Positions 6,077 through 56,602 of a stretch of 64,000 nucleotides of DNA are shown piece by piece; positions within the stretch are counted from its first letter, which is position 1; the number at the start of each line of letters is the position of its first letter. The notes beneath the pieces are model-generated. The model was not told the origin of the DNA and ran no database searches. It saw only the letters and a program-made list of their open reading frames with translations. Source of the DNA: Myxococcota bacterium (GTDB lineage Bacteria > Myxococcota_A > UBA796 > UBA9615 > JAKLKC01). The stretch is taken from contig JAKLKC010000012.1 in NCBI GenBank assembly GCA_023150875.1, positions 5,565 through 69,564 on the forward strand, in the 5' to 3' direction. The position numbers were made by a program, and so were the translations under genes.

Positions 6077-6153
6077 CACGTTTCCTGCCGGCCCGGATCC
6101 CGTCCCCGAGCGCTTCCCGCCCCGGACCGGATCCCGCCGGGGCGGCTTCGTGG

Positions 6154-6244
<91 letters not shown>

Positions 6245-12564: not shown

Positions 12565-12586
12565 ACCCTCGCCCCGGGAAAGCCAC

Positions 12587-14527: not shown

Positions 14528-14743
14528 CCTCGTCGTCCCGCCTCGATCCTCCGCCCCCGTCACCCGAAAGGTCCCCCGCCCGTAGGCGTCGCGGCCTCGG
14601 CGCGCCCGCCGGCCGCCCACTGAGGTCCGAGCGTGGCCCCATCTCCCTCCCGCGCACATGACAGGGATCGCTCGAAGGGTCCACGGACGCCCCGGCGCCC
14701 GGGCGCGCGGCGTCGCGATCGGACCGATCCCGGAGGTGGCGTC

Positions 14744-41348: not shown

Positions 41349-41352
41349 GGGG

Positions 41353-43920
41353 CTACCTCAGGAGGCTCGTGGGCAGGGCGGGGGACGAGGCGAGGACCGC
41401 CCCCGAGGCCGGATCCAGGACCACCACCTTCACCGACGCCGCGTCCTCGCCGCCCAGCGTCAGGCCGACGTGGGCCTTCGCGCCCGGCCGGACCCGCAGC
41501 ACCCCCCGCTCCCGGTCGAGCTCGCCCCCGCTGACCATGCCCGCCGCGCCCACCTGCTGCTGCTCCGACAGGACCACCACCCGCAGCTCCACCGCCTCGG
41601 GCGCGAACAGCGGCGGCGCCTTCACCTCGACCTCCACCACGAAGACCCGGTTCGTGATGCGCTCGGGCAGCCCCGCCAGGACCACCTCGATCCCGCCCGT
41701 CCCCGGCGCCGGCTCCCCCGCCGGGATCCGGAAGGAGAGGACCGGGATCACCAGCTCCTGGAGGCTCGTGCTCCCGTGGTGGAAGCTCAGGTCCCCGCCG
41801 GCCTTGAACACCCCCAGGCCCGCCGGGAACACGAGCTCCAGGTCGCCGGCGTAACCGAGCTCCCCCGCCGACACCCGCACCGTCCCGGGGGGCGTCGCGC
41901 CGCCGCGGCCGATCCAGACCCGCCGGTGGAGCTCCACCGTATCGCCGCCGGGGGCGTCGGTCTTCATGTCGTCCCCCTTCCGCAGCCCGAAGAGGTGGCC
42001 GTGGTCGGCGGTCACCACGAAGTGCTCCACCCCCGCGGCCGAGAGGCGCCGGGCCGCCCGGGCGAGGTCGCCGATCACCCCCTCCATTGCCCGCCGGGCC
42101 AGGTGGTCGTCCCCTGTCTCGCCCAGGTAGTCGATCTCCGTCGACCGCACCACCACCAGGGACCGGCCCGCGACCCGCCGCCGCAGCTCGGACGCCTTGT
42201 CCTGGAGCACCCGGCTCAGGGTCAGGTCCACGACGTCGGGCACCCGCGCCTGCAGGTACCTCGTCCGCTCCGTCACCCCCGAGAGCGGCACCCCGTCCAC
42301 CAGGGCCGCCACCTTCCCCTTGTGGGCCACCACCGACAGGTTCGCGGACGCCCCCGGCAGCAGCGCCGCCATGCCCACGGGCGTGATGGTGGGCAGGGCC
42401 GCCACGGCGGGGAGCAGGTGGAGGTCCAGGGCCCCCGGGAGCTGCCGCGCGAGCTCCACCCCCATCTCGTACCGCAGCGCGTCGACCAGGAAGTACGCCA
42501 CCGGCCCTCCCCGGGTCGCCACCACGTCCGGGTGGACGCGCGCCTGGTGCAGGACCCCCGGCACGCTCCAACCCGCCCGGGCGAGGGCCGCGGTGAAGCC
42601 CCGGGCCATGTCGTGGAGCAGCCGCTCCGCGTCCCGGAGCACGACGCTGATCGCCTTCTCGAACAGGGACTCGTCGCCGACCCGCCCCCGCCACGTCTCC
42701 AGCGCCCGCTGGGCGGCGTCCACCCGGTGCCACCCGTCCTCGGCGGCGTAGCCCGCCACCCAGGTCTCCGGACCCGCCGAGGTCGGGGGCAGGCTGCCCT
42801 TCACCGCCCCGATCCGCAGGCCGAGCACGGCGACGCGCCGCGCCACCTCCCATTGCTCCTTGCGGGGGACGCGGGTGGCCTCGTCGGTCCACTCCACCCA
42901 GAAGCTCCGCTCGCGATCCTCCACCACCTCCAACGCCTCGCCGAACCGTCCCCGCTCCAGCAGCTCGGCGCACCAGGAGAGCAGGAGCCGCTCCTCGAAC
43001 TCGAAGGTGTCGATGCGCCCCAGGTCCTCCGCCCGCACCTTCGCCCTCGCCAGGTGGAACTCCTGCTCCACCTGCCGGGCCCGGGCCGCGTAGGCCGGGG
43101 CGTGGTCCCGCCGGAAGCGCCGGGCCAGCTCCCGCACCTGCTCGCGTTGGGCCTCGGTCTCTGGCGCCGGCTGCCCGGACATCGACGCGGGCGGAGGCGC
43201 CCGGAGGTCCATCCGGAACTCGCCCAGCAGGACGTAGCGGGCGAGGCGGCCGCGGGCCTGGGCCAGGGGAAGGCCGTCGTCGAGGTGCAGGCCCACCTTC
43301 GAGGCGACGAGGCGGTACAGCTCCGCGGCGGCGCCCTTCTCGGCGATCTCCGCGTCCCGGGCCTCGTCGGCGAGCCACCGGACCAGGATCTCGGAGTCGG
43401 CGGCGTCCCCGAAGATCACCTTCAGCCGCGACGCCTCGCCGCCGTCCCGCTGCGCCAGGAAGGCCACCACGTCGTCGTAGGTGGCGCGCCCTCCCTCCAG
43501 CACCTCGTCGATGACCCCGTCGGTGTAGCGCCGGCGCAGGCAGTCCCGGGCCTGTCGGGGGAAGTCCCAGTCCAGGCGGCGCCCGGCCTTCTGCAGCTCC
43601 ATGAGCACGTCCCGGGCGGGCTCGGGCAGCTCCGCGGGCACGTAGACCAGGAGGGGCGGATCGGGGGGGCCGTCCCCCGCGAAGAAGGGCTCGACGGCGT
43701 CCCGCACCGCGAACCACGAGCCCTCGAAGGTGACGAGGCGGGCCCGACCGTCGCCCAGGTCCACCTCGAAGACGTCGGGGTGCTCGTCGCTCCAGGCACA
43801 CGCGCCGGCCAGGTCGTCGAAGAAGGGCCGGAAGGCGCCGGCGGGGTCCACGACGACGGCGACACCCCGACGCAGCGCGGCGCGCACCTGCTCGGCGAGG
43901 TGGGTGTGGAAGGGGTTCAT
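41353..43920 (-). CDS. pglZ: BREX alkaline-phosphatase-superfamily protein PglZ
   Basis: 'YFLVDALRYEMGVEL', 'VVTADHGHL' PglZ motifs; ATG at 43918-43920 overlaps stop of upstream gene (ATGA). Confidence 0.9.
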   Translation of the reverse strand: MNPFHTHLAEQVRAALRRGVAVVVDPAGAFRPFFDDLAGACAWSDEHPDVFEVDLGDGRARLVTFEGSWFAVRDAVEPFFAGDGPPDPPLLVYVPAELPEPARDVLMELQKAGRRLDWDFPRQARDCLRRRYTDGVIDEVLEGGRATYDDVVAFLAQRDGGEASRLKVIFGDAADSEILVRWLADEARDAEIAEKGAAAELYRLVASKVGLHLDDGLPLAQARGRLARYVLLGEFRMDLRAPPPASMSGQPAPETEAQREQVRELARRFRRDHAPAYAARARQVEQEFHLARAKVRAEDLGRIDTFEFEERLLLSWCAELLERGRFGEALEVVEDRERSFWVEWTDEATRVPRKEQWEVARRVAVLGLRIGAVKGSLPPTSAGPETWVAGYAAEDGWHRVDAAQRALETWRGRVGDESLFEKAISVVLRDAERLLHDMARGFTAALARAGWSVPGVLHQARVHPDVVATRGGPVAYFLVDALRYEMGVELARQLPGALDLHLLPAVAALPTITPVGMAALLPGASANLSVVAHKGKVAALVDGVPLSGVTERTRYLQARVPDVVDLTLSRVLQDKASELRRRVAGRSLVVVRSTEIDYLGETGDDHLARRAMEGVIGDLARAARRLSAAGVEHFVVTADHGHLFGLRKGDDMKTDAPGGDTVELHRRVWIGRGGATPPGTVRVSAGELGYAGDLELVFPAGLGVFKAGGDLSFHHGSTSLQELVIPVLSFRIPAGEPAPGTGGIEVVLAGLPERITNRVFVVEVEVKAPPLFAPEAVELRVVVLSEQQQVGAAGMVSGGELDRERGVLRVRPGAKAHVGLTLGGEDAASVKVVVLDPASGAVLASSPALPTSLLR

Positions 43921-44915: not shown

Positions 44916-45355
44916 GGCGTCACCTTCAGGATGCCCTTCGCCCGACCGTCCCGGGTGAGCTGGAAGTATTCCATGTGGCGTGCCAGCGCGGGCGTGCCTT
45001 CCGCGCCGACGAGCACGTCGAACCCGTACCTCGTCCCCACGCGCCGGCGGGAGAGGAGGTTGTACTCGAAAGGGCGCAGCTCGGACTGGAAGTCGTGGTC
45101 CGCACGGAGGGCGAGCACGAGGTCGATGTCCCCGGGATCGGGCTCGGCGGTCACGAAGCTCCCGTCGACGGCGAGCCAGGCGATGGCGGGCGTGGTCCTC
45201 GCCTCGGCCAGGAAGGCGCGCAACCTCTCCACGAGCACATGGCGACCGGGATGCCCCAGGCAGAAGCGCCCGAAGCGCTCGCGCACCTCCGCGAAGGTGC
45301 ACTCGTGCACCCCCGGAGGCAGCAGCCCGTCGGGGGTCAGCTCCGGGATCGGCAT
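44912..45355 (-). CDS. nucleotidyltransferase-like small protein (DUF-type, 'TPDGLLPPGVH' family)
   Basis: 'LAVDGSFVTAEPDPGDIDLVL' fits GSx9-13DxD NTase motif; N-terminal 'PELTPDGLLPPGVHECTFAEV' signature. Confidence 0.55.
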   Translation of the reverse strand: MPIPELTPDGLLPPGVHECTFAEVRERFGRFCLGHPGRHVLVERLRAFLAEARTTPAIAWLAVDGSFVTAEPDPGDIDLVLALRADHDFQSELRPFEYNLLSRRRVGTRYGFDVLVGAEGTPALARHMEYFQLTRDGRAKGILKVTP

Positions 45356-45482
45356 GGCGCCTCGGGGAGAAGCGGGGAGAGCTGGCGGGCGGAACGGCTC
45401 ATGCACGGTCCCCGACCGGCCTGCGGTCCGCCACATCGGGCGCACCGATCCGGGGGATGCTGCCGGAGGGCGGGAGCGCGGC

Positions 45483-45542
45483 GACGCCCCGGCGCCGCGC
45501 GGCGCGCACCAGCTCGGCGAGGTGGGTGTGGAACGGGCTCAT
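45483..45542 (-). pseudogene. remnant of a second pglZ 5' end (20 codons, MSPFHTHLAELVRAARRRG...)
   Basis: 45483-45542 ~ 43861-43920 at nt level incl. ATGA junction; similarity stops abruptly. Confidence 0.5.
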
Positions 45543-46228
45543 CCGGGGCCCTCGGCGCGGAGGCGGCCCTGGCGGCGGAGCTGCCTCGCCACCAGCGGGC
45601 ACTCGCAGGCCAGCCAGGAAAGGGGCCACGGTTCCGGCGGATCGTCCGGGTCGGTCCGCAGGCCGTGGTACCGGTCGTGGTATTCCGCACGTGCGTCACA
45701 GAAGACGGGGTCGTTGAGGCCCAGCCTCGAGATCGTCGCCTCGACCTTCGCCCGGACCTCGGCTTCCAGGTCGTCCGCCGGGGCGATCTCGAAGCTCGCC
45801 ACGTCCAGCGTGAACCAGTGGTCCTGGACCTCGAAAGGGTCCAGCACGTCCTCGTGGTCGCCCTTGTTGGTGTTCACCTGGGCGGCCGCGAGGCGGAAGT
45901 TCGACCACTCGTAGGCGAGGCGCCGGTCCCTCGACTTGGGGACGAAGTGGTCGACCGTGGCGGCTCCCGTCGCCTCGTGGATGCGCATGCCCAGGTAGCC
46001 GCACACGTTCCCGTAGCGCCGCCGGAGCTCGGGCAGCGCGCGGGTCCAGAACGTGGGGAGGTTCTCCACGGGGATGGCGTCGATGGTCGTCGCCACGACG
46101 CTCCGCTTGCGGCCTCGCCGTGGGGGACCCGAGGTATCACCGACGAGTTCACGGAGGGCTCGCTCGCCCGGGATCCTCACGAGCTCGTCGAAGTCGGCCG
46201 GTTCCTCGGCGGGATCGACGTGGATCAC
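45539..46228 (-). CDS. HNH endonuclease (PtuB-like)
   Basis: 'CGYLG...VDHFVPKS...WSNFRLAAAQVNTNK' HNH motif; GTGA overlap with upstream ATPase. Confidence 0.7.
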   Translation of the reverse strand: MIHVDPAEEPADFDELVRIPGERALRELVGDTSGPPRRGRKRSVVATTIDAIPVENLPTFWTRALPELRRRYGNVCGYLGMRIHEATGAATVDHFVPKSRDRRLAYEWSNFRLAAAQVNTNKGDHEDVLDPFEVQDHWFTLDVASFEIAPADDLEAEVRAKVEATISRLGLNDPVFCDARAEYHDRYHGLRTDPDDPPEPWPLSWLACECPLVARQLRRQGRLRAEGPG

Positions 46229-47511
46229 GCGGGCTCCGGCGGAAGGTGCTGCGACATGAAGTGCCGCCAGCGGACGAAGAAGGGGTCCATCGCCGGGAGG
46301 AGGCGGCCGAGATCGGCATCGACGTTCCGGATCCGGTCCGGGTCGGGTGAGGGCTCACGAATGAGCCGGCGGGCGGCTTCGATGGCCCTCTCCGCGTCTA
46401 CCGACGTCGCCTCGCCGAGATCGAATACGTCGGAGCGGAGCCACCGGCTCGCGTCGCCCCTCAGGTGCCACTCGTCCTTTGCGATCTGGACCATCCCGTC
46501 CACCAGGTCGAGCTTCCACAGGGCGTCCCGGGAGGGGTCGAACACGGGCTCCATCGAGGCGAGGATCAGGGGGGAATGGGTCGCCACCAGGAACTGGACG
46601 TCGGGAGCGGCGTCGTCGTGCCACCCGCGCACGGCCTCGTGGATGCCACGAAGCACCGTCCGCTGCCACCTGGGGTGGAGGTGGGTCTCGGGCTCGTCGA
46701 TGAGCACGATCAACTGGCGCGACATGGGCCTGCCCATGCTGGCGCTCTCCCGCTCGTGGGCGGACAGGGACCAGGCCAGCAGGTAGGCCAGCTTGCACAT
46801 CCGCTGCACCCCCGCCGGGGCGTATGTGATGGGGACGTCCTGGCCGTAGGGCATGGATACGGTGGGGATCGCCCGGTCGTCGTCGGGGTACGGGTACCGT
46901 GGCTCTCCCGGCCGCAAGGGTTCTCCTTCGGGGCCCAGGGCGGCCAGCAGCCTGCGGAGCAGCTCGAACCTCGGGTCCTCGCTGCGCTGCCAGAGGATCC
47001 AGTCCAGGATCAGCCCGGAGCAGATCGTCTGCTCCCGCTCCTGGCCGCCCTCGGTGATGGTCCGACGCAGGCCGTGGAAGACCTGGCGTGGGCTGAACTG
47101 GTATGCCGGTGGCGCCTCGATGTTACCGCCGTCGGGGCGCTGATAGAGGCGGTAGTTCCGAGCCGGGTCCCAGGCCGAGAACGAGCCGTCCACGCGAGCG
47201 TACAGGACGAGGCCCGGGTTCGGGGGGCGGCCCGGGGCCCGCCGCCAGGTCTGGGCTCCCGGGAGCCACTTGGAGACCGCTTGGTGGGGTCGCCGTTCCC
47301 CGTCGAAGGCGAAGGCGATCTCGGCGTCCTGCGCGTTCGGGACCGCGGGCGACTCGTGCCAGGTGCGGGTCAGGGCCCACCACCCCACATCCAGCAGGAA
47401 CGACTTCCCGAGCCCGTTGTCCCCGGTGATCAGGTTGAAGCGGCGCGCGATGGGGTCCATCACCAGCGACGCGCCGGGCCCGACCCGGGTGAGCTTCAGC
47501 TTCCTCAGCAT
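46225..47511 (-). CDS. AAA/ABC-type ATPase (PtuA/OLD-like)
   Basis: Walker A 'TGDNGLGKS', Walker B 'LIVLIDEPETHLHP', 'ATHSP'; ATG overlaps pglX stop (TGATG at 47509-47513). Confidence 0.7.
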   Translation of the reverse strand: MLRKLKLTRVGPGASLVMDPIARRFNLITGDNGLGKSFLLDVGWWALTRTWHESPAVPNAQDAEIAFAFDGERRPHQAVSKWLPGAQTWRRAPGRPPNPGLVLYARVDGSFSAWDPARNYRLYQRPDGGNIEAPPAYQFSPRQVFHGLRRTITEGGQEREQTICSGLILDWILWQRSEDPRFELLRRLLAALGPEGEPLRPGEPRYPYPDDDRAIPTVSMPYGQDVPITYAPAGVQRMCKLAYLLAWSLSAHERESASMGRPMSRQLIVLIDEPETHLHPRWQRTVLRGIHEAVRGWHDDAAPDVQFLVATHSPLILASMEPVFDPSRDALWKLDLVDGMVQIAKDEWHLRGDASRWLRSDVFDLGEATSVDAERAIEAARRLIREPSPDPDRIRNVDADLGRLLPAMDPFFVRWRHFMSQHLPPEPA

Positions 47512-50500
47512 CAGGAATCCTCGGCGGGCGGCGCCTTGGGCAGCGCCAGGTCGAGCTGGTGACTGCGCTCCTGACCGCGCCGGGGGCGCTCGGGAGCGGC
47601 TCGCGCCGGACGCCCCGGGGACCGGCGGGCCGGCGCGGGCGGCGGCGTGTGGGTGAGCTTCGCCAGGGCGTCCTTCACGGCGGGGGAGGTGCGCTCCCTC
47701 ACGAGGGACTCTACGACGTCGCCCTCGACCTCGCGGGGAGACCACCGACCGTCCTCGTCCGGGCACCAGAAGACGTCCTCCAGGCCGTGGGCGATGGCGA
47801 GGCTGCGGTCCAGGGCGCACTTCGGGACCACGCGCTCGGGCCACAGGCGCATGGCCAGGTGGGACCAGTCGTACTCGGCCTCGCAAAGGCGGGCGAAGGC
47901 GCCCTCGCACTCCTTCTGCCAGCTCCGGGTGTGGGCGAAGAGGCGGTGCAGCGGCGCGGCGTTGAGGATCACGCCGTCGTCGAGGTCCGGGTCCCACAGG
48001 GGGGCCACCCGGGCGACCTCGTCCCGGAAGGCGCGAAGCTCGTCCACGAAGGCCTCCTGCTCGGCCAGGGCGCGCCGCTGGGAGGGCGTGGGCGTGCCGC
48101 CGACCTCGGCGCGGAGGTGGGCGAGGCGCCCCTCCTCGAAGCGCAGCTTGGGCGCGACGTGGTCGTGGAGGACGCGGTGCAGGGTGTCCCGGGCGAAGCG
48201 GTGGATGTAGACCCACACGCTGTAGCTGCCCGAGGGGGTGCCCAGGCGCCAGTAGATGGGGGCCTTGCGGCGGCTCCGCGAGTAGCGCTGGACGTGCTCG
48301 GCGAAGAAGGCCCGCCTCAGCCAGGGGCGCAGGTCATCGGCGCCGGGGTCGAGGAGGGCGGTCGCCTCCCTGAGGCGCTCGTCGCCGTCGTCGCCGAAGA
48401 CCACGTCGAAGACCCGCCGGATGCACCCGAGCAGGTCGCGCTCGTGGCCGGGGTCGTCGACGAGGATCCCGTCGGTGGGGAAGGCGATGGGGTAGCCGGC
48501 GGGCGGTGCGTCCGCGGGCAGGCCGTCCTCGCCGGTCAGCATGCCCGGGGAGCAGGGGGGGAGGGGATCGAAGGGGTCGGGCTCGGGCGGTAGCGGGCGC
48601 TCGCCGGTGGCGAGGCGGATGTCGAAGCGGCCGTATGCCGTGCCCACGAGCGCGCTGACTACGGGCATCACCACCTCAGCAGCACCGAACTCGGGGGACC
48701 ACGCCGTGCTGAGTTTGCGCACATCGTCGGACGCGGTCACCCCGAACAGTTGTGCGATTTCGTCATCAATGACAGCTAACGCTTCATTGAATTTGTGGAG
48801 CTCCACCTTCCTCCGGCAATGCTCATCCGCAACAAGGCCGCGACCGACTCCAGTTCCGTAGATATGCGCAGGCATTCCACCAAACGTAGGATCCAATTCA
48901 TCCAAGCCGCGAAGAGCCCTAGCCGCGCTAATCGCTATCATACTGGCATGTTCAACGCGCTTCTTGACCTCCTCTTGTGGCCACCGCCAATTCAGCGACT
49001 TCACCAGCCCGGTCGGGAATGCGGAAGCTGTGGACCGGCTCATTACGGCCTTTCGCGTAACGGCGGCGTTCAACCATCCGACGAGATATGCATTGCTAAC
49101 GGACTCTGTGATGGAAATAACGGCGGGGCCGACAATCGACATGATGACACCCCGGGGTAGGTTCCGAACTGCAAATCCGAGCGTCGACCGGTACGAGTAC
49201 GTTGCCCCGCCCCTGTACCACCACGAAGATCCCGTTCGGCACTGCGCCGTCTGTCCATTGATGGCCATGTTCACAGCATCTAGCTCCGCTCCGTCCTGCC
49301 TTCGGTTCAGGACCAGATGGACGTCGCCGTAGAATGGCTGGAATTCGCCCCCTTTGGCATACCGTGCCCAGCACTTGGGTGATAGATCTCTGGCATTGAC
49401 TTCAGTCCAGATGCGGAGGAACCGCTCGTCGTCATGAGTCAGCGGCCCTTGACGAGCTGTTCCTGCTGCGGGTTCGAACGACTCGCTTTGTTCCCCGATC
49501 TGCGTGGATGCCAGTGCTCCACCTGTCAATACTTGATGTGCTACGCTCATGACTATTTGCCGCCGCGCCCGCCACGCTGGATCACGAGGACGACCGGCAG
49601 AAGCAGCGAGGAGGGCTTCCGCGCTTTGCCCCGGTTCGCCCGAGACCACGAATACCGAGTCTTCTGCACTTCCGGGGGCGCCGGCCAGTACAAAGTAACA
49701 GGCCCGGACTACAGCATCGTCCATGAGCCCCATTCCAGCATCGACCAGTATTGCGAAGCGATCGTTGAACTTGTGCCTCCTCCAGCGACCAAGTCTCTTG
49801 GTTGTCAGCACGCTATTGGGAGCCACAACACCGATCGGTCCATTCGTCAGTTCGGCTGCACGGTCGACAAGAGCCGCAGATGCCTCGACGTACGAGAGGG
49901 AGCGATTTCGCCTTAGAAGCAGGAATGGAGAATCGGGGAGCCTCCCAAACGGCGGATTCATCAACACCACGTCGTACCGCCCCCGGCACACGTCGATGAA
50001 CGCGAACCCCCGCGCCGCGTCCTCGGCGAACAGCCTCCTCCGGTACGCGTTCCCGGTCGTCGCCCCCTCGGCGTACTCCCTCAGCGCCTCGTAGACCTTG
50101 CCCTCGACCTCCTCCCACCGCTCCCGGTCCAGCCGCGCGTACATCGGCCCCCGGCTGAACCGCTTCTCCAGCTCCTGGCGCACCGTGTCCTCGATGCGCA
50201 GCAGGGTCCCGGCCTCGCCCGCGAGCCTCATCTCTTCGAACACCCGCCGCACCAGGGCGGCGACGTCGGGGTCCAGGCCCCAGCAGAACTCGTCCAGCAG
50301 GTCCGCCTCCCCCGGCATGGGCTCGGCGATCACCACGTTCGTCCGGGTCACGAGCGGTCGCTTCGCGCGGTCCAGGCCCAGGTCCTTCCACGCCCTCTGG
50401 GCCCGCATCCACAGCGCCAGTGCCGCGATCTGGGCGGCCCGGGGGTCGATGTCCACCCCGTACAGGTTGTGCCTCAGGACCAGCCCCGGCAGCTCCCGCC

Positions 50501-51617
50501 GCAGCGCCTCCCGCGTCGCGTAGTCCTCGCGCAGGCTCCTCCCGGTGGCCTCCGACGCCGGGGAGCCCTCGTCCTCCCACGCCTCCTCGTAGATCACCAG
50601 GAGCAGGTCGAAGGCGTAGAGCAGGAAGTGACCCGACCCGCAGGCCGGGTCCAGGATCTTCAGGTCCCGCGGGTCCTTCTTCGCCCGGAAGGGCAGGTGG
50701 ACCGGCCGCTGCTCGGGCGGGACCGTCTCGTCGGGCTCGGGCGCGGCCTCGCCCTCCGCCAGGAACACGGTGCCCGGCCGGCGCACGAGGTAGCGGCAGA
50801 GCTCCGCGAGCCGCGTCCCGCCCCGGCGCATCTCCAGCCAGGTCTGGCCGAGGGTGTTGTCGGTCAGGAACTCCACGACGTAGCGCGGGGTGAAGAACTG
50901 GTTGCGGACCGCGAGCTCCCGGCTGTCGCGGGGGGCCTGGGACTCGGCCCGCATCCGCCGCCGCTCGTCCTCGCCGTTGAAGTACTGGTAGACCCAGCCG
51001 ATGGTCTCGTCCTCGCCCCACACCTGGGCCAGCTCGGGGTCGTTCAGGACCCCCAGCAGATCCTCCAGCGCGTTGCGCCGGGGCCAGAGCAGGCTCGCGG
51101 GGTCGCGGCGGTCGAAGAGGACCCGCACCTCGCGGCCCACCTCGTCGAAGAGGCACTCCAGGTAGAGGCGGTAGGCCTCGTGGGGCCGCACCTTCAGCCC
51201 CTCGGCCAGGCCCTGGAACTCGCGGAAGCCCGACGATGCCAGGGCCCCCCTCACGCTCTCCCTCACGATCCCCCGCGCCTCCAGCATCTTCAGGGCGACG
51301 AAGCGGTTGAGGGTGGTGAAGGCGCACTCCCGGGTGAGCGCCGCCACCGCCTCGGGCGCGGTCCGGCCCTGGGCGCGGTGGTGGGCGACGGCGTCCACCA
51401 GCCTCCGCCGCACCCGGCGGGCCGCGGGGTCCTCATCGAGATGGCGCCCCGCCTCCTCCGCCACCGTGCCGTCCGGGCGGATGTCGAAGGTGCCCTCGAG
51501 CTGGGCGGCGATCTCCCCCTCGAGCAGGCGGCGGGCGGCCTGGGTGGCGCGCTGGATGCGGTTGCGGGTGTCCTTGTCCATGCCTCGGGGCCGTGGGCGC
51601 GGGGCGGCGGGGATCAT
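47511..51617 (-). CDS. pglX: BREX N6-adenine methyltransferase PglX
   Basis: 1368 aa; 'VVLMNPPFG' motif IV at ~49948-49962, 'DPACGSGHFL' motif I; position between brxC and pglZ. Confidence 0.85.
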   Translation of the reverse strand: MIPAAPRPRPRGMDKDTRNRIQRATQAARRLLEGEIAAQLEGTFDIRPDGTVAEEAGRHLDEDPAARRVRRRLVDAVAHHRAQGRTAPEAVAALTRECAFTTLNRFVALKMLEARGIVRESVRGALASSGFREFQGLAEGLKVRPHEAYRLYLECLFDEVGREVRVLFDRRDPASLLWPRRNALEDLLGVLNDPELAQVWGEDETIGWVYQYFNGEDERRRMRAESQAPRDSRELAVRNQFFTPRYVVEFLTDNTLGQTWLEMRRGGTRLAELCRYLVRRPGTVFLAEGEAAPEPDETVPPEQRPVHLPFRAKKDPRDLKILDPACGSGHFLLYAFDLLLVIYEEAWEDEGSPASEATGRSLREDYATREALRRELPGLVLRHNLYGVDIDPRAAQIAALALWMRAQRAWKDLGLDRAKRPLVTRTNVVIAEPMPGEADLLDEFCWGLDPDVAALVRRVFEEMRLAGEAGTLLRIEDTVRQELEKRFSRGPMYARLDRERWEEVEGKVYEALREYAEGATTGNAYRRRLFAEDAARGFAFIDVCRGRYDVVLMNPPFGRLPDSPFLLLRRNRSLSYVEASAALVDRAAELTNGPIGVVAPNSVLTTKRLGRWRRHKFNDRFAILVDAGMGLMDDAVVRACYFVLAGAPGSAEDSVFVVSGEPGQSAEALLAASAGRPRDPAWRARRQIVMSVAHQVLTGGALASTQIGEQSESFEPAAGTARQGPLTHDDERFLRIWTEVNARDLSPKCWARYAKGGEFQPFYGDVHLVLNRRQDGAELDAVNMAINGQTAQCRTGSSWWYRGGATYSYRSTLGFAVRNLPRGVIMSIVGPAVISITESVSNAYLVGWLNAAVTRKAVMSRSTASAFPTGLVKSLNWRWPQEEVKKRVEHASMIAISAARALRGLDELDPTFGGMPAHIYGTGVGRGLVADEHCRRKVELHKFNEALAVIDDEIAQLFGVTASDDVRKLSTAWSPEFGAAEVVMPVVSALVGTAYGRFDIRLATGERPLPPEPDPFDPLPPCSPGMLTGEDGLPADAPPAGYPIAFPTDGILVDDPGHERDLLGCIRRVFDVVFGDDGDERLREATALLDPGADDLRPWLRRAFFAEHVQRYSRSRRKAPIYWRLGTPSGSYSVWVYIHRFARDTLHRVLHDHVAPKLRFEEGRLAHLRAEVGGTPTPSQRRALAEQEAFVDELRAFRDEVARVAPLWDPDLDDGVILNAAPLHRLFAHTRSWQKECEGAFARLCEAEYDWSHLAMRLWPERVVPKCALDRSLAIAHGLEDVFWCPDEDGRWSPREVEGDVVESLVRERTSPAVKDALAKLTHTPPPAPARRSPGRPARAAPERPRRGQERSHQLDLALPKAPPAEDS

Positions 51618-51663
51618 ACCAGCCGTCCCCGACGTTGGCGCGGGCGGGGGCGCGCCGCCGACG

Positions 51664-54600
51664 CTACTGCACCCAAACCTTCTTGCCCTCCCCGATCAGC
51701 CGCTCGCACTCGTCCCGCAGGGCCTGGATCGCCGCGTCGAGCTGCTCGGGGGTCTCGACGCCCCCCGGGAAGAACGACGACACCCGCACCCGCACCACGC
51801 GGTTGCCGTCGATCATGCGGAGCATCTCCTCCGTCGCCGCCTGGAGCCGCGCCGGGCACGCCTCGGTCTCGGCGCGCACCTGGGGGATGGGGGTGGGGGG
51901 CGGCAGGGCGGTGGTGGCGGGGCCCGCGAGGGGGGCCTCCACCCGGGCCTGCTGGGCAGCGTCGAGCTGGGACCACTCCGGCGCCCCGCGCAGGCGCTCC
52001 ACGGCGGCGGCGTAGGCGGCGCGCCGGGCCTCGACGGCGGCGTCGAAGCGGGCCCGCCAGGCGGCGCCGACCTCCCGGGCGTGCTCGTCGATCCGCGGCA
52101 GCTCCCGGAAGAAGGTCTCGCGCCGCAGCAGGTCGTCCAGCTCCTCGGCCCGCGCCGCCAGGCCTTCGGGGAGGTCCGGCTCCTCCTTCAGGAACGGCCA
52201 CTGGCGGCGCACCGCGTCCCGGGCACGGGCGAGGTCCAGGAGGCGCGGCTCGGTCAGGGCGTCGTCCAGCTCGGCGGCGCGCTTGATGCCCGCCTTGATC
52301 TCCCCGCAGCTCGCGTTGAACGTGGTGATGGCGTTGTCGTCGCCGCCCGTGCGGATCACGCGGACCTGCTCCAGGGCGCGGGCCAGCACCTCGGCCCCCG
52401 GCAGGTCGTCGCGGACCAGGCGGTTGTGGACGTCCTGAAGGGCCTGCTCGTGGCGATGGACCTCGTCCTTGATGGCGCGGGCGACGACTCCCGGCTCCAG
52501 CTCGGCGATCTCCTTGCCGAACACGTCGCGGAAGTGCCCGTCCGCCTTGACCAGCTCCCCGTAGTCGACGCTGACCTTCGGCCGGAACGTCGCCTGCCGG
52601 AAGAGGTTGTTGTTGGTGAACGTCGTCCGCGCGTCGAGGGAGAGGGCGTTGTCGATCACCTGCCCCCGGGAGACCGCCTCCACCTTCCCGGCGCGCAGAA
52701 GGCTCGCCACCAGCAGGCGCACCACGTCGAAGTCCCAGCCGAAGGGCTCCTTGCCCAGCTCGTCGGCCAGCGCCCGGCCGCTCACCAGCTCGCCATAGGC
52801 CGCCTTGTGGGCGATCCGGTTCATCACCTCGGAGAGGGGACCGCCCTCGGTGCGGAACGCGGGCTTGCCCCTCGTCTCCTGGACGAGCTGGAGCTGGGAG
52901 AAGACCGGCGGGAGGCCCCGGAGGTTCTCGGTGGTCAGCAGGGCCTCCAGGTCCTTCGCGGACACCTTCGCGGCGCCGTCCGAGAAGCGGTCGAAGACCT
53001 CGGGGAGCACCCTCGCGAGCACGCCCGCGCAGGCGCGGCCCACGTCGGCGGCGCCGGCCTCGGGGTTGCGCTCGTTGCCGCGGAAGTAGACGGTGCCGGA
53101 GAGCAGGGCTTCCCGCAGGCGCCGCCTCAAGTCGTCCTGGTGGCGCTGGCGGCGGCGCTTCTCCTCGGCCACGAGGGCGGTCTCGTCCCGGGTGGTGGCG
53201 TTGCGCTCGCGTCGGGCCAGGATCTCCTGGCTGCGGAAGACCTCCTCGGTCACGCGGTCCACGGCGTCGTCCAGGCGGGCGATCCAGAAGACGGCGGTGC
53301 GCTCCTCGCGGCTGCGCTGCCGCCACTCCTCGCGCAGGCGGCCCCACTCGGCCTCGTCCGGCGCCAGGGAGACGTGGACCGGAACGTCGCCGGGGGTGAC
53401 GAGGCGGTTGTTCAGGAAGAGCCCGGCCCGGAAGGGCTTGACGTCACGCAGGAGGTGGGACGGCTGGGGCGTCCACAGCCCGTCCACCACCTCGGCGTGG
53501 ATCCGGGCGGCGTCGGCGGGCCGGAGGGAGAGCTTGCCCCGCTGGCCCTCCCAGTCGTCCTCGGCGGGCGTGGGGATCCGGTAGCCGTCCTCGCCCAGGC
53601 GGATGCGGCCCGCGGCGACGAGGGCGTCCAGGGCCGCCTTGACCTCGGGGAGCTGGGAGTCGGCGGTGACGCTCGGGTGGAGGGTGGCGGCGACGTTCTC
53701 GGCGGTGCGGGGGATCCGCTGCTCGTACTGGAGCAGGCAAACCGCCTTGGCGACGGCCTGGGCGCGGGGGTGCGGCACCTCGCGGCCGATGTCGTCGATC
53801 TTCCGGCGCACGTCGCTCGAGACGTTGCCCGAGACGAGGTCGTACACGCGATCGAGGGTGACGAGGGTCCCCTCGGGCTTCGAGGCGAGGTCCACCTCGG
53901 GGTGGATGAGGAGCTGCTGGGCGAGCTTGATGATGGTGCGGGCGGCGCCGCCGACGTGTTTGCTGGCGCCGCCCTGGGTGCGCAGGCCCGAGACGACGTT
54001 GATCACGAGGTCGATCTGGTAGGGGAGGAGGGGGTAGAGGTCGATGAAGCCCTGGTCGGTCAACTCGGGCAGGGCGACGTTGGGGGCGTGGACGCGGGTG
54101 TGGTCCACGAGGCGGCCCCGGTGCTCCCGGTGGAGGGCGCGCAGGCGGGCCTGGGCGTCGGCGTGCTTCTCGAGGACGCGGCGGCTGGTGACCTCGGAGA
54201 TGTCCGAGGGCTCCAGGTGCACCTGGAGGGGGAAGCGGTCCTTCACCTTCGGCAGCTCGATGCGCGTCTGGTCGAGGCCGCCGACCAGCTCCGAGAGGGC
54301 CTCCTGGGAGGTGACCATGACCCAGATCCGCCCGCCGCCCCGCTGGCCCAGGCGCTCGACCACGGCGCGGAGGTCCTCGAGCTTACCGCCGTCCTTGGCG
54401 ACGAACTGGCCGACCTCGTCGATGACGAAGAGCAGGTTGCGCTTTTCGGGCCGGCGCCTCGACAGCAGCTCCAGGCAGCGGTCCGCCAGCAGGGCCGGGG
54501 TGACGTCGCCCCGGCCCTTCGCCCCCTTCACCCAGGAGTCGGGGGCGTTGTAGGTGCGGGGCTCCAGGGCGTGCATGACCGCCGAGGCCCGGCCGATGGC

Positions 54601-55218
54601 GAGGGCGGGCAGGCCCTTGTCGTGGTCCCAGGCCCGGCGGTCGTGGAGCTCGGCGTACTTCGCGACGAAGGCGCCGAGGCGGCCCTCGGCCTCCAGCGTG
54701 ATCTCCAGCTCGGCCAGGTCCAGCTCCCGGGCGTAACCGAGCCGCTGGAGGAAGAGGCGGTACATGATCTCGGTGATCGACTGGTTTCCGGCGCGGATCC
54801 CCCGGTCGGTCGAGACGTCGAAGATCACCGCCTCGGTGGGGACCATCTCGTTCACCTGGCGGAGCAGGACCTCGGCCTTGTTGTCCTTGGGGACGCTGAG
54901 CCGCCGGGCGAGGAGGTCGCCCGCGCGCGCGCCGCCGCCCAGGTCGCGGTCCTCGATGGCGAGGCCTAGCATCTTGGCGAAGCTGGACTTGCCCGAGCCG
55001 AAGAAGCCCGAGATCCACACCGCGGTGCCGTCGTGGGGCTTGCGGAACGCCTCCAGGTAGGCCTCGAGGATGGCGATCTGCTGCCTCCGGATGGAGTCGG
55101 TGACGACGTACTCCGACAGCTCGTGGCGGATCCGCGCCAGGTCGTCGTCGTCGACCTTCACGACCTCCTCGATCCGGCGGTCGACGTCGCGGGCAAAGAG
55201 CTCGGCGATGCGTTCCAT
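51664..55218 (-). CDS. brxC: BREX ATPase BrxC
   Basis: 1184 aa; P-loop 'GFFGSGKSSFAK', 'LLFVIDEVGQF' Walker B; N-terminus 'MERIAELFARDVDRRIEEVVKV' typical. Confidence 0.9.
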   Translation of the reverse strand: MERIAELFARDVDRRIEEVVKVDDDDLARIRHELSEYVVTDSIRRQQIAILEAYLEAFRKPHDGTAVWISGFFGSGKSSFAKMLGLAIEDRDLGGGARAGDLLARRLSVPKDNKAEVLLRQVNEMVPTEAVIFDVSTDRGIRAGNQSITEIMYRLFLQRLGYARELDLAELEITLEAEGRLGAFVAKYAELHDRRAWDHDKGLPALAIGRASAVMHALEPRTYNAPDSWVKGAKGRGDVTPALLADRCLELLSRRRPEKRNLLFVIDEVGQFVAKDGGKLEDLRAVVERLGQRGGGRIWVMVTSQEALSELVGGLDQTRIELPKVKDRFPLQVHLEPSDISEVTSRRVLEKHADAQARLRALHREHRGRLVDHTRVHAPNVALPELTDQGFIDLYPLLPYQIDLVINVVSGLRTQGGASKHVGGAARTIIKLAQQLLIHPEVDLASKPEGTLVTLDRVYDLVSGNVSSDVRRKIDDIGREVPHPRAQAVAKAVCLLQYEQRIPRTAENVAATLHPSVTADSQLPEVKAALDALVAAGRIRLGEDGYRIPTPAEDDWEGQRGKLSLRPADAARIHAEVVDGLWTPQPSHLLRDVKPFRAGLFLNNRLVTPGDVPVHVSLAPDEAEWGRLREEWRQRSREERTAVFWIARLDDAVDRVTEEVFRSQEILARRERNATTRDETALVAEEKRRRQRHQDDLRRRLREALLSGTVYFRGNERNPEAGAADVGRACAGVLARVLPEVFDRFSDGAAKVSAKDLEALLTTENLRGLPPVFSQLQLVQETRGKPAFRTEGGPLSEVMNRIAHKAAYGELVSGRALADELGKEPFGWDFDVVRLLVASLLRAGKVEAVSRGQVIDNALSLDARTTFTNNNLFRQATFRPKVSVDYGELVKADGHFRDVFGKEIAELEPGVVARAIKDEVHRHEQALQDVHNRLVRDDLPGAEVLARALEQVRVIRTGGDDNAITTFNASCGEIKAGIKRAAELDDALTEPRLLDLARARDAVRRQWPFLKEEPDLPEGLAARAEELDDLLRRETFFRELPRIDEHAREVGAAWRARFDAAVEARRAAYAAAVERLRGAPEWSQLDAAQQARVEAPLAGPATTALPPPTPIPQVRAETEACPARLQAATEEMLRMIDGNRVVRVRVSSFFPGGVETPEQLDAAIQALRDECERLIGEGKKVWVQ

Positions 55219-55229
55219 GGCGGGTCTCC

Positions 55230-55817
55230 TCAGAAGATGCGGGGCCGGTAGTTGTGCTCGGCGTCGATCGCGCCCATGAAGCGCAGGCCGGCGGGGCCGT
55301 CGGTCTCGCCGGGGTAGAAGAGCACCGTGGGAACGGCCACCTGGCCCACGAGCTGCTCCAGAAGGGCCGAGGTGCGGTAGAGGGGGTACAGGGCGCCGGC
55401 GCGGACGAGGAGGACGACGTCCCGGAGGGGATCAGCGTCCTTCGGGACCCGGGCGGCGACGAGGCGGTCGAGGCGCTGGTACTCGGCCAGGACCGAGAAG
55501 GCGGTCTCGATCGCCAGGGGGAGGCCGGCCTCGCGCTCCGCCGCGGCGAGGGCGCCGCCCCCCAGCCCCTCGGCAGCGAGGGCGGCGGCGAGGCACTCGG
55601 CGAGGGAGATCCGGGTGACGCGCTTGCCCTTCTGGCCGAGGCGGGTGGCGAGGAGGGTGACCTCCTTGCGGAGCTCGAGCTCGTCCTCGGGCGGGTAGAC
55701 GAAGACCACGAAGGGCATGTCGTGGTAGGCGCTGATCCCCGGGCGGGGGTCCTCCTTGATCAGCGCGGGCTCGAGCCGCCCGGTCAGGCGGGCCTTCCAA
55801 GAGGGAGTGGGGGTCAA
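55230..55817 (-). CDS. brxB: BREX protein BrxB (DUF1788)
   Basis: 'VVFVYPPEDELELRKEV' BrxB N-terminal signature; inferred TTG start with RBS aggag, overlapping brxA stop (TTGA). Confidence 0.7.
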   Translation of the reverse strand: MTPTPSWKARLTGRLEPALIKEDPRPGISAYHDMPFVVFVYPPEDELELRKEVTLLATRLGQKGKRVTRISLAECLAAALAAEGLGGGALAAAEREAGLPLAIETAFSVLAEYQRLDRLVAARVPKDADPLRDVVLLVRAGALYPLYRTSALLEQLVGQVAVPTVLFYPGETDGPAGLRFMGAIDAEHNYRPRIF

Positions 55818-56602
55818 GGCGACAACTCCTCCCGCGCGAACTCCTCGGCGGACGCGCGGGGCAGGCGGAGCTCGGCGACGCTGCCGGCGACCTCGTAGCG
55901 GAGCCGGCCGAGCTGGTGGAGGCGGAACAGCTCCCGTTGCACGTCGTCGGGCCCCATGAGGTACATCCGCCAGTCCGGGGCGTGGACCAGGCGGTGGGGG
56001 TTGGGCTCCTCCCGGGCGGCGGCGTGGAGCAGGTAGAGGAAGGCGTCGTCGGGCAGGTGGTAGGGGACGAACTCCCGGGCGAGGGTCCCGGTCATCAGCC
56101 CGAAGTCCACGGCCATGCGGAGCAGGCCCGAGGCGACGCGGGAGGTGGTGGAGGGGGACCAGCGCTCCTTGATCTCCACGTCCTCGCGGTCGTGGAGGCC
56201 GTCGAGGTAGGGCGCGACGTCCTCGGTGCGGATCCGGAAGGCGCCGGCGGCGTGCTGGTCGTAGAGCCACCGCGACAGGAAGTCGCGCACCAGGAACTCG
56301 TCCCGGGTCATGTGCCACAGGAGCAGGGGGCGGAAAGTCTCGAGGGCGAGGCCGCGCCGGGCCAGCTCGACGAGGACTCGGTCGCGGCCCTCGGTGTCGA
56401 AGCGACGGTTGACGGTCTTGGCCAGGTCCCGCCACCAGTTCGCGCTGCCGGCGCCGACGGGGTCCGCGGACTTGAGGCGGTCGAGGTTCCACTTCCGGGG
56501 CCGGGAGAGGTCCCAGTGGCGGAAGAGGTCGTAGGTGGGCTCGACGAGGGCCCCCTTGATGACGGTGAACGACGAGACGACCCGGGCGCGCGCGCCGGCC
56601 AT
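55814..56602 (-). CDS. brxA: BREX protein BrxA (DUF1819)
   Basis: N-terminal 'VVSSFTVIKGALVEPTYDLF' matches BrxA 'YSSGF...' start; ATG overlaps upstream stop (TGATG). Confidence 0.7.
   Translation of the reverse strand: MAGARARVVSSFTVIKGALVEPTYDLFRHWDLSRPRKWNLDRLKSADPVGAGSANWWRDLAKTVNRRFDTEGRDRVLVELARRGLALETFRPLLLWHMTRDEFLVRDFLSRWLYDQHAAGAFRIRTEDVAPYLDGLHDREDVEIKERWSPSTTSRVASGLLRMAVDFGLMTGTLAREFVPYHLPDDAFLYLLHAAAREEPNPHRLVHAPDWRMYLMGPDDVQRELFRLHQLGRLRYEVAGSVAELRLPRASAEEFAREELSP

What the first reader, a model, noticed from the sequence alone, without database searches (positions are those of the whole stretch)
48650..49950. In-frame lower-GC mosaic segment inside pglX (motif IV through the target-recognition region)
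From just downstream of the NPPFG codons (~49950) to ~48650 the local GC falls to roughly mid-50s %, against ~70% elsewhere (e.g. 'atttcgtcatcaatgacagctaacgcttcattgaatttgtggagc'), while the 1368-aa frame stays open. This is the signature of a horizontally exchanged catalytic/TRD module, i.e. a specificity swap of the BREX methyltransferase.
Basis: seen in the sequence. Interest (0 to 1): 0.6.

Follow-up and report, generated by a model that had tools for sequence, protein, structure and literature searches.

The report
Foreign specificity cassette inside BREX pglX
A 1.3-kb block in the middle of a phage-defence methyltransferase gene (BREX pglX) has foreign base composition and covers exactly the DNA-reading part of the enzyme, so it is most likely a swapped-in specificity module; this kind of swap is expected for such enzymes, and the same boundaries recur in related pglX genes.

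Summary
pglX (47511-51581, minus strand) has third-codon-position GC (GC3) of 0.61 in codons 554-986 (window 49958-48660) and 0.97 elsewhere. The log-likelihood ratio is 152, against at most 11 in 200 codon shuffles. Codon adaptation is 0.20 inside the block and about 0.8 outside. The 5' edge falls on the N codon of NPPFG (motif IV). The 3' edge lies about 9 codons before the conserved GRFD motif. The block encodes the methyltransferase fold after motif IV, the hinge, the target-recognition domain (TRD) and the helical spacer, which together hold the known base-reading elements of PglX. The frame is open, family-invariant residues are kept, and the structure model is confident.

I found no donor: the best non-self match among 1.84 billion representative proteins is 40% identical. 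Relatives show the mechanism directly. L020 and L026 are about 90% identical in DNA up to NPPFG and again from GRWD, and unalignable in between. In 48 of 54 pairs with closely related backbones, identity breaks right after NPPFG.

The dip is also family-wide: the middle part has lower GC3 than both flanks in 68 of 71 loci. The window is therefore an extreme, sharp case of a general cassette architecture. I found no silent cassette copies or flanking repeats in the window. An independent assembly is identical.

Verdict: a real feature, a new member of a known kind, of moderate interest.

The parts
47511..51581 (-). pglX (brxX), the BREX type-1 N6-adenine methyltransferase. It is 1356 aa from M13; the longest ORF starts at 51617.
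   Evidence: PADLOC PglX model matched over the full length, 1192 bits. Pfam Eco57I and MmeI_Mtase matched. 100% identical to an NCBI Myxococcota PglX record. The structure model matches solved PglX/BrxX structures, E about 1e-40.
49959..51581 (-). Native 5' backbone: the N-terminal helical domain and the methyltransferase fold up to strand beta-4. GC3 is 0.99.
   Evidence: It is 55-76% identical to the nearest homologs.
50625..50651 (-). Motif I (DPACGSGHF), the SAM-binding loop, located in the native backbone.
   Evidence: Read from the sequence. These columns are invariant in alignment A1.
49944..49958 (-). 5' junction, which is motif IV NPPFG (AAT CCG CCG TTT GGG). The GC3 changepoint falls on the N codon.
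   Evidence: ATG AAT CCG CCG TTY GG is nearly invariant at DNA level across 72 loci.
48660..49958 (-). Foreign specificity cassette, codons 554-986 (433 aa). GC is 0.587, GC3 is 0.61 and codon adaptation is 0.20.
   Evidence: It is only 23-37% identical to homologs whose flanks are 44-76% identical. The best non-self hit in 1.84e9 representatives is 40% identical.
49491..49958 (-). First part of the cassette (approximate limits): the methyltransferase fold after motif IV plus the hinge. It corresponds to BrxX residues ~508-665 and includes the loop that reads the last base of the site in E. coli (BrxX 587-601).
   Evidence: Mapping NPPF554 = BrxX NPPY508 (PMC11842806). Model secondary structure. 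pLDDT is 82-92 at first and 60-68 in the hinge and subdomain region.
48978..49490 (-). Second part of the cassette (approximate limits): the target-recognition domain.
   Evidence: HMMER aligns residues 716-839 to BrxX 673-795, which is the TRD. pLDDT is 91-98. The family-conserved scaffold residues are kept (R732, F733, K755, G756, G757).
48660..48977 (-). Third part of the cassette (approximate limits): the helical spacer after the TRD.
   Evidence: Long helices at model residues 713-733, 759-788 and 810-825. They correspond to the spacer helices of Salmonella PglX, residues 850-960 (PMC11341690).
48621..48632 (-). 3' anchor motif GRFD. The GC3 changepoint lies about 9 codons upstream of it.
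   Evidence: The same motif marks the 3' edge of swaps and GC3 dips in relatives.
47514..48659 (-). Native 3' backbone: the conserved C-terminal domain. GC3 is 0.96.
   Evidence: It is 44-69% identical to homologs.
51664..55218 (-). brxC (context). GC3 is 0.98.
   Evidence: PADLOC BrxC, 1576 bits. GC3.
55230..55850 (-). brxB (context; the start coordinate is approximate).
   Evidence: PADLOC BrxB, E 5e-50.
55814..56596 (-). brxA (context; the start coordinate is approximate).
   Evidence: PADLOC BrxA, E 3e-82.
41353..43920 (-). pglZ (context). GC3 is 0.97.
   Evidence: PADLOC PglZ, 791 bits. Gene limits taken from the Logan gene calls.
39312..41348 (-). brxL (context). GC3 is 0.97.
   Evidence: PADLOC BrxL, 952 bits.

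Best explanation
Codons 554-986 of pglX (window 49958-48660) are a specificity cassette of foreign origin. It replaced the resident equivalent by a double crossover between an incoming, diverged pglX-type allele and the resident gene.

The two crossovers resolved at the conserved sequences that bracket the variable part of the family. The 5' one is ATG AAT CCG CCG TTY GG, which encodes M-NPPFG (motif IV). The 3' one is the S-x-x-x-G-x-x-x-GR(F/W)D block. The piece that was swapped encodes everything in PglX known to touch the recognition bases: the methyltransferase loop after motif IV, the hinge, the TRD and the spacer helices. [quoted passage not shown]

PglX reads the site for both host methylation and phage exclusion. 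One such event would therefore retarget the whole BREX system to a new 6-bp motif without breaking the link between self-marking and defence.

Shown here: the compositional discontinuity, its limits, its domain content, and the same exchange with the same limits in relatives. Inferred: that the event happened in this lineage, that it was recent (no amelioration is visible), the direction of transfer, and that the motif changed.
For: - **Discontinuity.** The GC3 step is sharp, 0.97 to 0.61 and back, with a log-likelihood ratio of 152 against at most 11 in shuffles.
- **Codon usage.** Codon adaptation is 0.20 in the block and 0.78-0.82 in the flanks.
- **Native neighbours.** All other BREX genes have GC3 of 0.90-0.98.
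- **Family boundaries.** The junctions coincide with the points where family conservation stops (right after NPPFG) and resumes (G992/G996, the GRFD block).
- **Domain content.** The domain mapping comes, with PMC11842806 and PMC11341690.
- **Intact protein.** The protein looks functional. The frame is open and all family-invariant residues are kept. The model has pLDDT 86.5 overall and 91-98 in the TRD.
- **Direct precedent.** L020 and L026 are about 0.9 identical in DNA up to NPPFG, 0.3-0.45 across the block, and 0.8-0.96 from GRWDVR onward.
- **Recurrent 5' break.** In 48 of 54 pairs with close backbones, identity breaks immediately after NPPFG.
- **Recurrent composition step.** The GC3 changepoint falls exactly on the N codon of NPPFG in 7 of 40 strong-signal genes.
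- **Shared cassettes.** The same cassette occurs on different backbones: L026/P0029 have N 62%, M 89%, C 80% (N = 5' backbone, M = middle cassette, C = 3' backbone), and L006/P0029 have N 56%, M 80%, C 57%.
- **Independent assembly.** A Logan contig is 100% identical across both junctions.
Against: - No donor and no pre-swap sister allele exists in any searched collection. The cassette's best match is 40% identical. The backbone's best match is 76% identical. The event therefore cannot be reconstructed for this gene.
- The lower GC3 of the middle part is nearly universal in the family, 68 of 71 loci, including low-GC hosts. Some general force, and not only one recent transfer, contributes to low GC3 in this region.
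- The conserved anchors are short, about 17 nt at the 5' side. That is marginal for RecA-dependent recombination. The recurrent junctions may therefore reflect selection for functional chimeras and not a mechanistic hotspot.
- Both assemblies come from the same read set.
Confidence: 0.8

Rival explanations
1. In-situ evolution without foreign DNA. The variable region evolves fast under diversifying selection, with AT-biased mutation and weak selection or weak gene conversion at silent sites, so its GC3 decays where it stands.
For: The dip is family-wide and always in the AT direction, in 68 of 71 loci with a median of 0.17. It scales with host GC3 (r = 0.65, slope 0.79). In many loci it is broad and extends into other poorly conserved stretches.
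Against: In the window the step is codon-sharp on both sides. GC3 falls by 0.36 in 433 codons while adjacent codons stay at 0.97-0.99. Silent sites should not follow protein-domain limits in this way. L020 and L026 have backbones only about 10% diverged in DNA yet cassettes that cannot be aligned, so replacement does occur. Identical or near-identical cassettes sit on backbones that are 56-62% identical.
Confidence: 0.08
2. Gene conversion from a second pglX-like or Eco57I-type methyltransferase gene elsewhere in the same genome. The donor is then intragenomic and lies outside the 64-kb window.
For: Several of the cassette's best matches are short Eco57I-family proteins of 319-741 aa, which could be stand-alone methyltransferases or gene fragments. 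Only 64 kb of the genome is visible.
Against: No similar sequence exists in the rest of the window. A resident donor with GC3 of 0.61 would itself have to be foreign in a genome with GC3 of 0.9-0.98. No exact or near match to the cassette other than this gene exists in the 15-billion-protein collection, which includes this MAG.
Confidence: 0.05
3. Metagenome assembly chimera. Reads from two organisms were joined at conserved pglX motifs.
For: The source is a MAG. The junctions lie at the most conserved DNA stretches of the family.
Against: An independent Logan assembly gives an 11.7-kb contig that is 100% identical across both junctions. A chimera would need two in-frame joins that return to the same backbone. 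The same mosaic pattern occurs in isolate and complete genomes: Desulfosarcina variabilis, Filomicrobium insigne, Brevundimonas bacteroides, Novosphingobium hassiacum and Bordetella tumulicola.
Confidence: 0.03
4. Programmed variation: an invertible shufflon of pglX cassettes, or a diversity-generating retroelement acting on the TRD.
For: From memory, not checked here: Goldfarb et al. 2015 described some type-1 BREX loci with a second partial pglX and a recombinase, which suggests cassette switching.
Against: There are no inverted or direct repeats at the junctions. No second copy of any part of the cassette exists in the 64 kb by blastn or tblastx. I did not specifically search the window for recombinase or reverse-transcriptase genes; none is called within the BREX operon. 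A 1.3-kb block with a different composition is not what retroelement mutagenesis produces.
Confidence: 0.02

Closest known systems
E. coli HS BrxX and Salmonella PglX, the type-1 BREX methyltransferases (PDB 9EWZ, 8ZEK, 8C45, 8Q56)
   Same: The four-part architecture is the same, with about 1150 aligned columns and TM 0.62-0.65. Motifs I and IV are present, and the operon has the same partners. In those enzymes the TRD plus one methyltransferase loop after NPPY determine the 6-bp site, and the TRD is the most variable part (PMC11842806, PMC11341690). These elements fall inside the cassette found here.
   Different: Sequence identity is only about 20%. The published work changed specificity by point mutations. 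It does not describe natural whole-cassette replacement, compositional mosaicism or preferred junctions, as far as the held literature shows.
Hypervariable central TRD region of Type III mod genes in Haemophilus and Neisseria (PMC1557822)
   Same: The gene has conserved 5' and 3' parts and an unalignable central block thought to be the TRD. There are mosaic alleles with recombination break-points next to the variable block, and exchange across species.
   Different: It is a different methyltransferase class (beta, Type III). It is phase-variable through repeat tracts. No within-gene compositional step was reported in the passages read.
TRD shuffling and 'domain movement' in Type I hsdS and Type IIG/III methyltransferases of Helicobacter pylori (PMC3077401, PMC3575425, PMC3983042)
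   Same: Recognition domains behave as mobile units that move between alleles by recombination at conserved flanks and so change methylation specificity.
   Different: Those cases occur within one species and at high DNA identity. Here the cassette differs from its host gene by 0.36 in GC3, which implies a distant donor. It also carries part of the catalytic fold, not only the TRD. I listed these papers from a search and did not read them in detail.
MmeI-family Type IIL enzymes (PDB 5HR4)
   Same: The methyltransferase-plus-TRD fold is homologous (rank 45-46). Pfam MmeI_Mtase matches. Specificity is set by TRD residues.
   Different: MmeI has a nuclease domain and lacks the BREX-specific N- and C-terminal domains. 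It is not part of a BREX operon.

Membership tests
BREX type-1 PglX/BrxX methyltransferase | Gamma-class N6-adenine methyltransferase motifs I (GxG) and IV (NPPY/F) | tested here: met
   DPACGSGHF is at residues 323-331 and NPPFG at 554-558. Pfam Eco57I and MmeI_Mtase score above their cut-offs.
BREX type-1 PglX/BrxX methyltransferase | Full-length similarity to PglX profiles and to the solved PglX/BrxX fold, including the BREX-specific N- and C-terminal domains | tested here: met
   PADLOC PglX model matches residues 13-1320, 1192 bits. Foldseek to 8Q56, 8C45 and 9EWZ gives E about 1e-40 over about 1150 columns.
BREX type-1 PglX/BrxX methyltransferase | Operon with brxA, brxB, brxC, pglZ and brxL | tested here: met
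   All five genes were found on the same strand. A Septu pair and two small ORFs are inserted between pglX and pglZ.
BREX type-1 PglX/BrxX methyltransferase | Methylates a non-palindromic 6-bp site and is required for phage exclusion | not testable with these tools
   This needs methylome data or expression experiments.
Recombinant (mosaic) methyltransferase allele with an exchanged recognition module | Sharp compositional or codon-usage discontinuity inside an intact reading frame | tested here: met
Recombinant (mosaic) methyltransferase allele with an exchanged recognition module | The discontinuity coincides with the limits of the recognition module | tested here: met
   The block runs from NPPFG to just before GRFD. 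It contains the post-motif-IV loop, the TRD and the spacer.
Recombinant (mosaic) methyltransferase allele with an exchanged recognition module | Close relatives with the same backbone but a different module, or the same module on a different backbone | tested here: inconclusive
   This is met in the family (L020/L026; L026/P0029; 54 pairs). It is not met for this gene itself, because its nearest backbone relative is only 76% identical.
Recombinant (mosaic) methyltransferase allele with an exchanged recognition module | Identifiable donor lineage | tested here: not met
   The best non-self cassette match is 40% identical in 1.84e9 representatives, 37% in the word-indexed search, and at most 30% in plasmids and phages.
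Recombinant (mosaic) methyltransferase allele with an exchanged recognition module | Changed recognition sequence | not testable with these tools
   This needs SMRT or nanopore motif calling.
Phase-variable pglX shufflon (invertible cassettes) | A second partial pglX copy, inverted repeats at the junctions, and an adjacent site-specific recombinase | tested here: not met
   No repeats at the junctions. No second copy in the 64 kb. No recombinase is called in the operon. I did not run a dedicated recombinase search of the rest of the window.

The most novel reading that the evidence does not exclude
PglX genes across bacteria may be built as a conserved chassis carrying a replaceable specificity cassette. 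The cassette has a fixed 5' anchor, the DNA-level-conserved M-NPPFG codons. It has a small set of alternative 3' anchors: GR(F/W)D, GILVDDPGH and RYSKSRRKAPIYW. The cassette pool may also form a separate evolutionary compartment that is AT-richer than its host in nearly every genome (68 of 71, including hosts at 38-45% GC). It would then behave like accessory DNA embedded inside a single gene. If so, nature has already mapped the junctions at which BREX specificity can be re-engineered by cassette exchange. The systematic AT shift would also need its own explanation, such as residence on mobile elements, constant turnover, or weak selection or gene conversion at silent sites.
Probability: 0.4. 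Interest if true: 0.55.

Novelty: new member of a known kind. Interest (0 to 1): 0.4.

Why it matters
For this genome, the result says that the BREX system was very probably retargeted to a new motif by a single recombination event, and it gives the exact limits of the exchanged piece.

More generally, the recurrent natural junctions suggest where PglX chimeras are likely to fold and work. These junctions lie right after NPPFG at the 5' side and at GR(F/W)D or two further conserved motifs at the 3' side. This is useful because published loop-swap attempts between E. coli and E. fergusonii BrxX lost defence (PMC11842806).

The family-wide AT shift of the cassette is a small unexplained regularity about how defence specificity modules circulate.

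None of this overturns current understanding. TRD variability in PglX and TRD exchange in other methyltransferases are already established.

Tried and rejected
- **Donor search.** I searched for a donor in four ways: a word-indexed search of 5.8e9 proteins, an exhaustive HMMER search of 1.84e9 representatives, plasmids and phages. Nothing exceeded 40% identity.
- **Sister allele.** The full-length protein search found nothing with a backbone more than 76% identical.
- **Silent cassettes and repeats.** I looked in the window for silent cassettes, flanking repeats and inverted repeats. Only chance-level matches appeared.
- **Antisense ORF.** The ORF at 49434-49916 (160 aa) inside the block has no Pfam match, and its codon-position GC is not gene-like. 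I treat it as spurious.
- **RNA families.** An Rfam scan of 38-60 kb found nothing.
- **Cross-phylum example.** L004 (Planctomycetaceae) and L030 (Bacteroidota) share M at 81% against N and C at 61%. At DNA level the similar stretch has fuzzy limits and extends past the cassette. I do not use it as a clean example.
- **Pool-mean model.** I considered that cassette GC3 reverts to a common pool mean. The regression has slope 0.79 and intercept about 0, with no crossover in low-GC hosts. I rejected this model.
- **Literature.** Goldfarb et al. 2015 is not held, so its statement about pglX cassettes with recombinases is cited from memory only.
Full report
**1. The observation**

The window has 73.4% GC. 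In 300-nt windows the mean is 0.734 and the SD is 0.043. The only long excursion below 0.64 is at 48601-50101, where GC is 0.60 and the minimum of 0.553 is at 48701.

The region lies inside a minus-strand ORF at 47511-51617. The ORF has 1368 codons from the first ATG. Homologs and the NCBI record begin at M13, which gives 1356 aa.

The drop sits almost entirely in third codon positions. A two-changepoint maximum-likelihood fit places the block at codons 554-986, which is window 49958-48660. GC3 is 0.61 inside and 0.97 outside, and the log-likelihood ratio is 151.9. Two hundred shuffles of the gene's codons never exceed 11.1.

Codon adaptation was measured against 14 other genes of the window. 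It is 0.82 and 0.78 in the two flanks of pglX and 0.20 in the block. The reference genes range from 0.73 to 0.85.

**2. What the gene is**

The ORF is the PglX/BrxX methyltransferase of a complete type-1 BREX operon, all on the minus strand:

| Gene | Window coordinates |
|---|---|
| brxA | about 55814-56596 |
| brxB | about 55230-55850 |
| brxC | 51664-55218 |
| pglX | 47511-51581 |
| PtuA (Septu, inserted) | 46225-47514 |
| PtuB (Septu, inserted) | 45539-46228 |
| DUF6932 gene (inserted) | 44912-45355 |
| 332-aa ORF (inserted) | 43917-44915 |
| pglZ | 41353-43920 |
| brxL | 39312-41348 |

The sequence is 100% identical to a PglX annotated in a Myxococcota MAG. Every other BREX gene has GC3 of 0.90-0.98. 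The flanks of pglX are therefore native in composition and the block is not.

**3. What the block encodes**

The 5' changepoint falls on the N codon of NPPFG (motif IV; AAT CCG CCG TTT GGG at 49944-49958). The 3' changepoint lies about 9 codons before the conserved GRFD motif at 48621-48632.

HMMER alignment to the solved E. coli BrxX gives three reference points:
- NPPF554 corresponds to NPPY508.
- Residues 716-839 correspond to BrxX 673-795.
- Residue 1045 corresponds to BrxX 993.

The published BrxX domains are the methyltransferase domain at 211-650, the TRD at 651-837, and the C-terminal domain from 838. A methyltransferase loop at 587-601 reads the sixth base (PMC11842806). [quoted passage not shown] The engineered specificity changes lie in residues 684-838 plus the loop at 591-600 (PMC11341690).

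The block therefore carries the methyltransferase fold after motif IV, the hinge, the whole TRD and most of the helical spacer. That is every element known to contact the recognition bases. [quoted passage not shown]

An AlphaFold2 model of residues 170-1368 has pLDDT 86.5 and pTM 0.81, with pLDDT 91-98 across the TRD. Its best structural matches are the solved PglX/BrxX structures, with E about 1e-40, about 1150 aligned columns and TM 0.62-0.65. All family-invariant and nearly invariant residues inside the block are present. The protein looks functional.

**4. Where the block came from**

I could not find a donor. The word-indexed search of 5.8 billion proteins gave six hits, the best at 37% identity. 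An exhaustive HMMER scan of 1.84 billion cluster representatives gave 40% as the best non-self identity. Plasmid and phage collections gave at most 30%.

Against the nearest full-length homologs, the 5' backbone (N) is 55-76% identical, the 3' backbone (C) is 44-69% identical, and the block (M) is 23-37% identical. No pre-swap sister allele exists in public data. The event cannot be reconstructed for this gene.

**5. Evidence from relatives**

An alignment of 41 homologs shows that conservation stops immediately after NPPFG and resumes at the G-x-x-x-GR(F/W)D block. I fetched 80 pglX loci from GTDB species-representative genomes and analysed their DNA.

*(a) Direct swaps.* L020 and L026 are 0.83-0.97 identical in DNA up to the NPPFG codons. 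They are at 0.30-0.47, which is random level, for about 435 codons. They are at 0.81-0.96 again from GRWDVR onward.

*(b) Break positions in close pairs.* I took 54 protein pairs whose N parts are at least 82% identical but whose middle parts are at most 50% identical.
- The identity break falls 5-8 residues after the N of NPPFG in 48 of 54 pairs.
- The 3' break falls at GR(F/W)D (within −8 to +15 residues) in 16 of 48 pairs.
- It falls at about +53, the GILVDDPGH motif, in 4 pairs.
- It falls at about +74 to +118 residues, mostly at or just before the RYSKSRRKAPIYW motif, in 26 pairs.

The pairs are not independent, because several proteins recur.

*(c) Shared cassettes.* The same cassette sits on different backbones. 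L026/P0029 have N 62%, M 89%, C 80%. L006/P0029 have N 56%, M 80%, C 57%.

*(d) Compositional changepoints.* Among 40 genes with a strong GC3 signal, the 5' changepoint is exactly on the N codon of NPPFG in 7, including the window. It is within 15 codons in 13. Measured from the start of the conserved C part, the 3' changepoint is within 15 codons in 9 of the 40. Counting all loci listed relative to GR(F/W)D, about a dozen lie within roughly 15-18 codons of the motif.

*(e) DNA-level conservation of the 5' anchor.* The 17 nt ATG AAT CCG CCG TTY GG are nearly invariant across hosts with GC3 from 0.40 to 0.97. The N codon is AAT in 51 of 72 loci.

Together these results show that the block seen in the window is the family's natural unit of exchange and that the window uses the commonest pair of boundaries.

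**6. A family-wide regularity that changes the reading**

In 71 non-redundant loci, the middle part has lower GC3 than both flanks in 68. The median deficit is 0.17 and the Wilcoxon p is 2e-13. Neighbouring BREX genes match the pglX flanks, with a mean difference of −0.02. This holds even in hosts at 38-45% GC.

Cassette GC3 tracks host GC3 with r = 0.65, slope 0.79 and intercept about 0. This argues against simple reversion to a common pool mean.

The dip by itself is therefore not peculiar to this genome. The window stands out for its depth: its deficit of 0.36 is exceeded in only 4 loci. It also stands out for its razor-sharp edges.

The sub-gene pattern resembles the well-known tendency of accessory and recently acquired DNA to be AT-richer than the core genome. 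That tendency is established knowledge cited from memory. I cannot say which of the following causes the pattern: constant turnover, residence on mobile elements, or weak selection or gene conversion at silent sites in a region that rarely recombines homologously.

**7. Rivals**

- **Assembly chimera.** An independent Logan assembly of SRR17665588 gives an 11.7-kb contig 100% identical to window 40084-51836, across both junctions. The same mosaic occurs in isolate and complete genomes. I rate this unlikely, although read-level confirmation is still missing.
- **In-situ decay.** This cannot give codon-sharp edges at silent sites. It is also contradicted by L020/L026. It may still contribute to the family-wide background.
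- **Programmed switching.** There are no repeats at the junctions, no second copy in the 64 kb, and no recombinase called in the operon. I did not run a dedicated recombinase or reverse-transcriptase search of the rest of the window.
- **Intragenomic donor.** A donor outside the window cannot be excluded, but it would itself be foreign in composition.

**8. Mechanism**

The most likely mechanism is allelic replacement of the specificity cassette. An incoming diverged pglX-type allele underwent a double crossover with the resident gene. The crossovers resolved at, or were selected to lie at, the conserved anchors.

PglX supplies site recognition for both methylation and exclusion (PMC11341690, PMC11842806). 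The swap would therefore retarget the whole system in one step.

The lack of amelioration suggests the event is recent on the timescale of silent-site change. This is an inference. From the block's GC1, GC2 and GC3 of 0.64, 0.51 and 0.61, the donor genome would be roughly 55-60% GC. This is also an inference.

**9. Comparison with what is known**

TRD variability in PglX is documented (PMC11842806, PMC9009780). Exchange of recognition modules at conserved flanks is well established for Type III mod (PMC1557822) and for Type I and IIG systems in H. pylori (PMC3077401, PMC3575425, PMC3983042).

In the held literature I found no description of three things for pglX: natural cassette replacement, its preferred junctions, or the compositional step.

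I therefore file this finding as a new member of a known kind. The family-wide junction map and the AT shift are modest additions that deserve a proper survey.

**10. Verdict**

Confidence in the cassette-replacement explanation is 0.8. Interest is 0.4.

Noticed in passing
window 43917-47514 (minus strand): A Septu pair is inserted inside the BREX operon between pglX and pglZ: PtuA at 46225-47514 and PtuB at 45539-46228. With it are a DUF6932/PDC-M63A gene (44912-45355) and an unannotated 332-aa ORF (43917-44915). Their codon adaptation of 0.64-0.71 is slightly below the window's 0.73-0.85, which suggests an older separate acquisition.
   Followed up: partly
L031 about 7670-8700 (Myxococcota bacterium MAG.430, JAKLKE010000022.1): This is the closest genome-collection relative of the backbone (N 72%, C 70%). 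It also has a low-GC middle stretch (GC 0.55-0.63), but the reading frame shifts inside it. The 658-aa and 809-aa ORFs overlap in different frames. It could be a pseudogene, an assembly error or a phase switch.
   Followed up: partly
L002-L081, pglX middle parts: The middle part of pglX is AT-shifted at silent sites relative to its own flanks and neighbouring BREX genes in 68 of 71 genomes, whatever the host GC. The cause is not explained.
   Followed up: partly
L002-L081, NPPFG codons: The asparagine of NPPFG is encoded by AAT in 51 of 72 loci, including hosts with GC3 above 0.8 where AAC would be expected. Either the junction lies just upstream of this codon, or the DNA sequence itself is under constraint.
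   Followed up: no
window 56602-57399 (minus strand): A 265-aa ORF upstream of brxA has only a weak BrxE match (E 1e-6) and no Pfam hit. It partly overlaps the longer ORF that contains brxA, in another frame.
   Followed up: no
window 14251-14551: This is the only other low-GC excursion in the window (GC 0.64). It spans the gap between two plus-strand ORFs (12536-14527 and 14624-17212) and is probably an intergenic or promoter region.
   Followed up: no
window 5987-6244: Two adjacent tRNA-Ser genes, with anticodons CGA and GGA.
   Followed up: no
window 49434-49916 (plus strand): A 160-aa antisense ORF lies inside the cassette. It has no Pfam match and its codon-position GC is not gene-like, so it is probably spurious.
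   Followed up: yes
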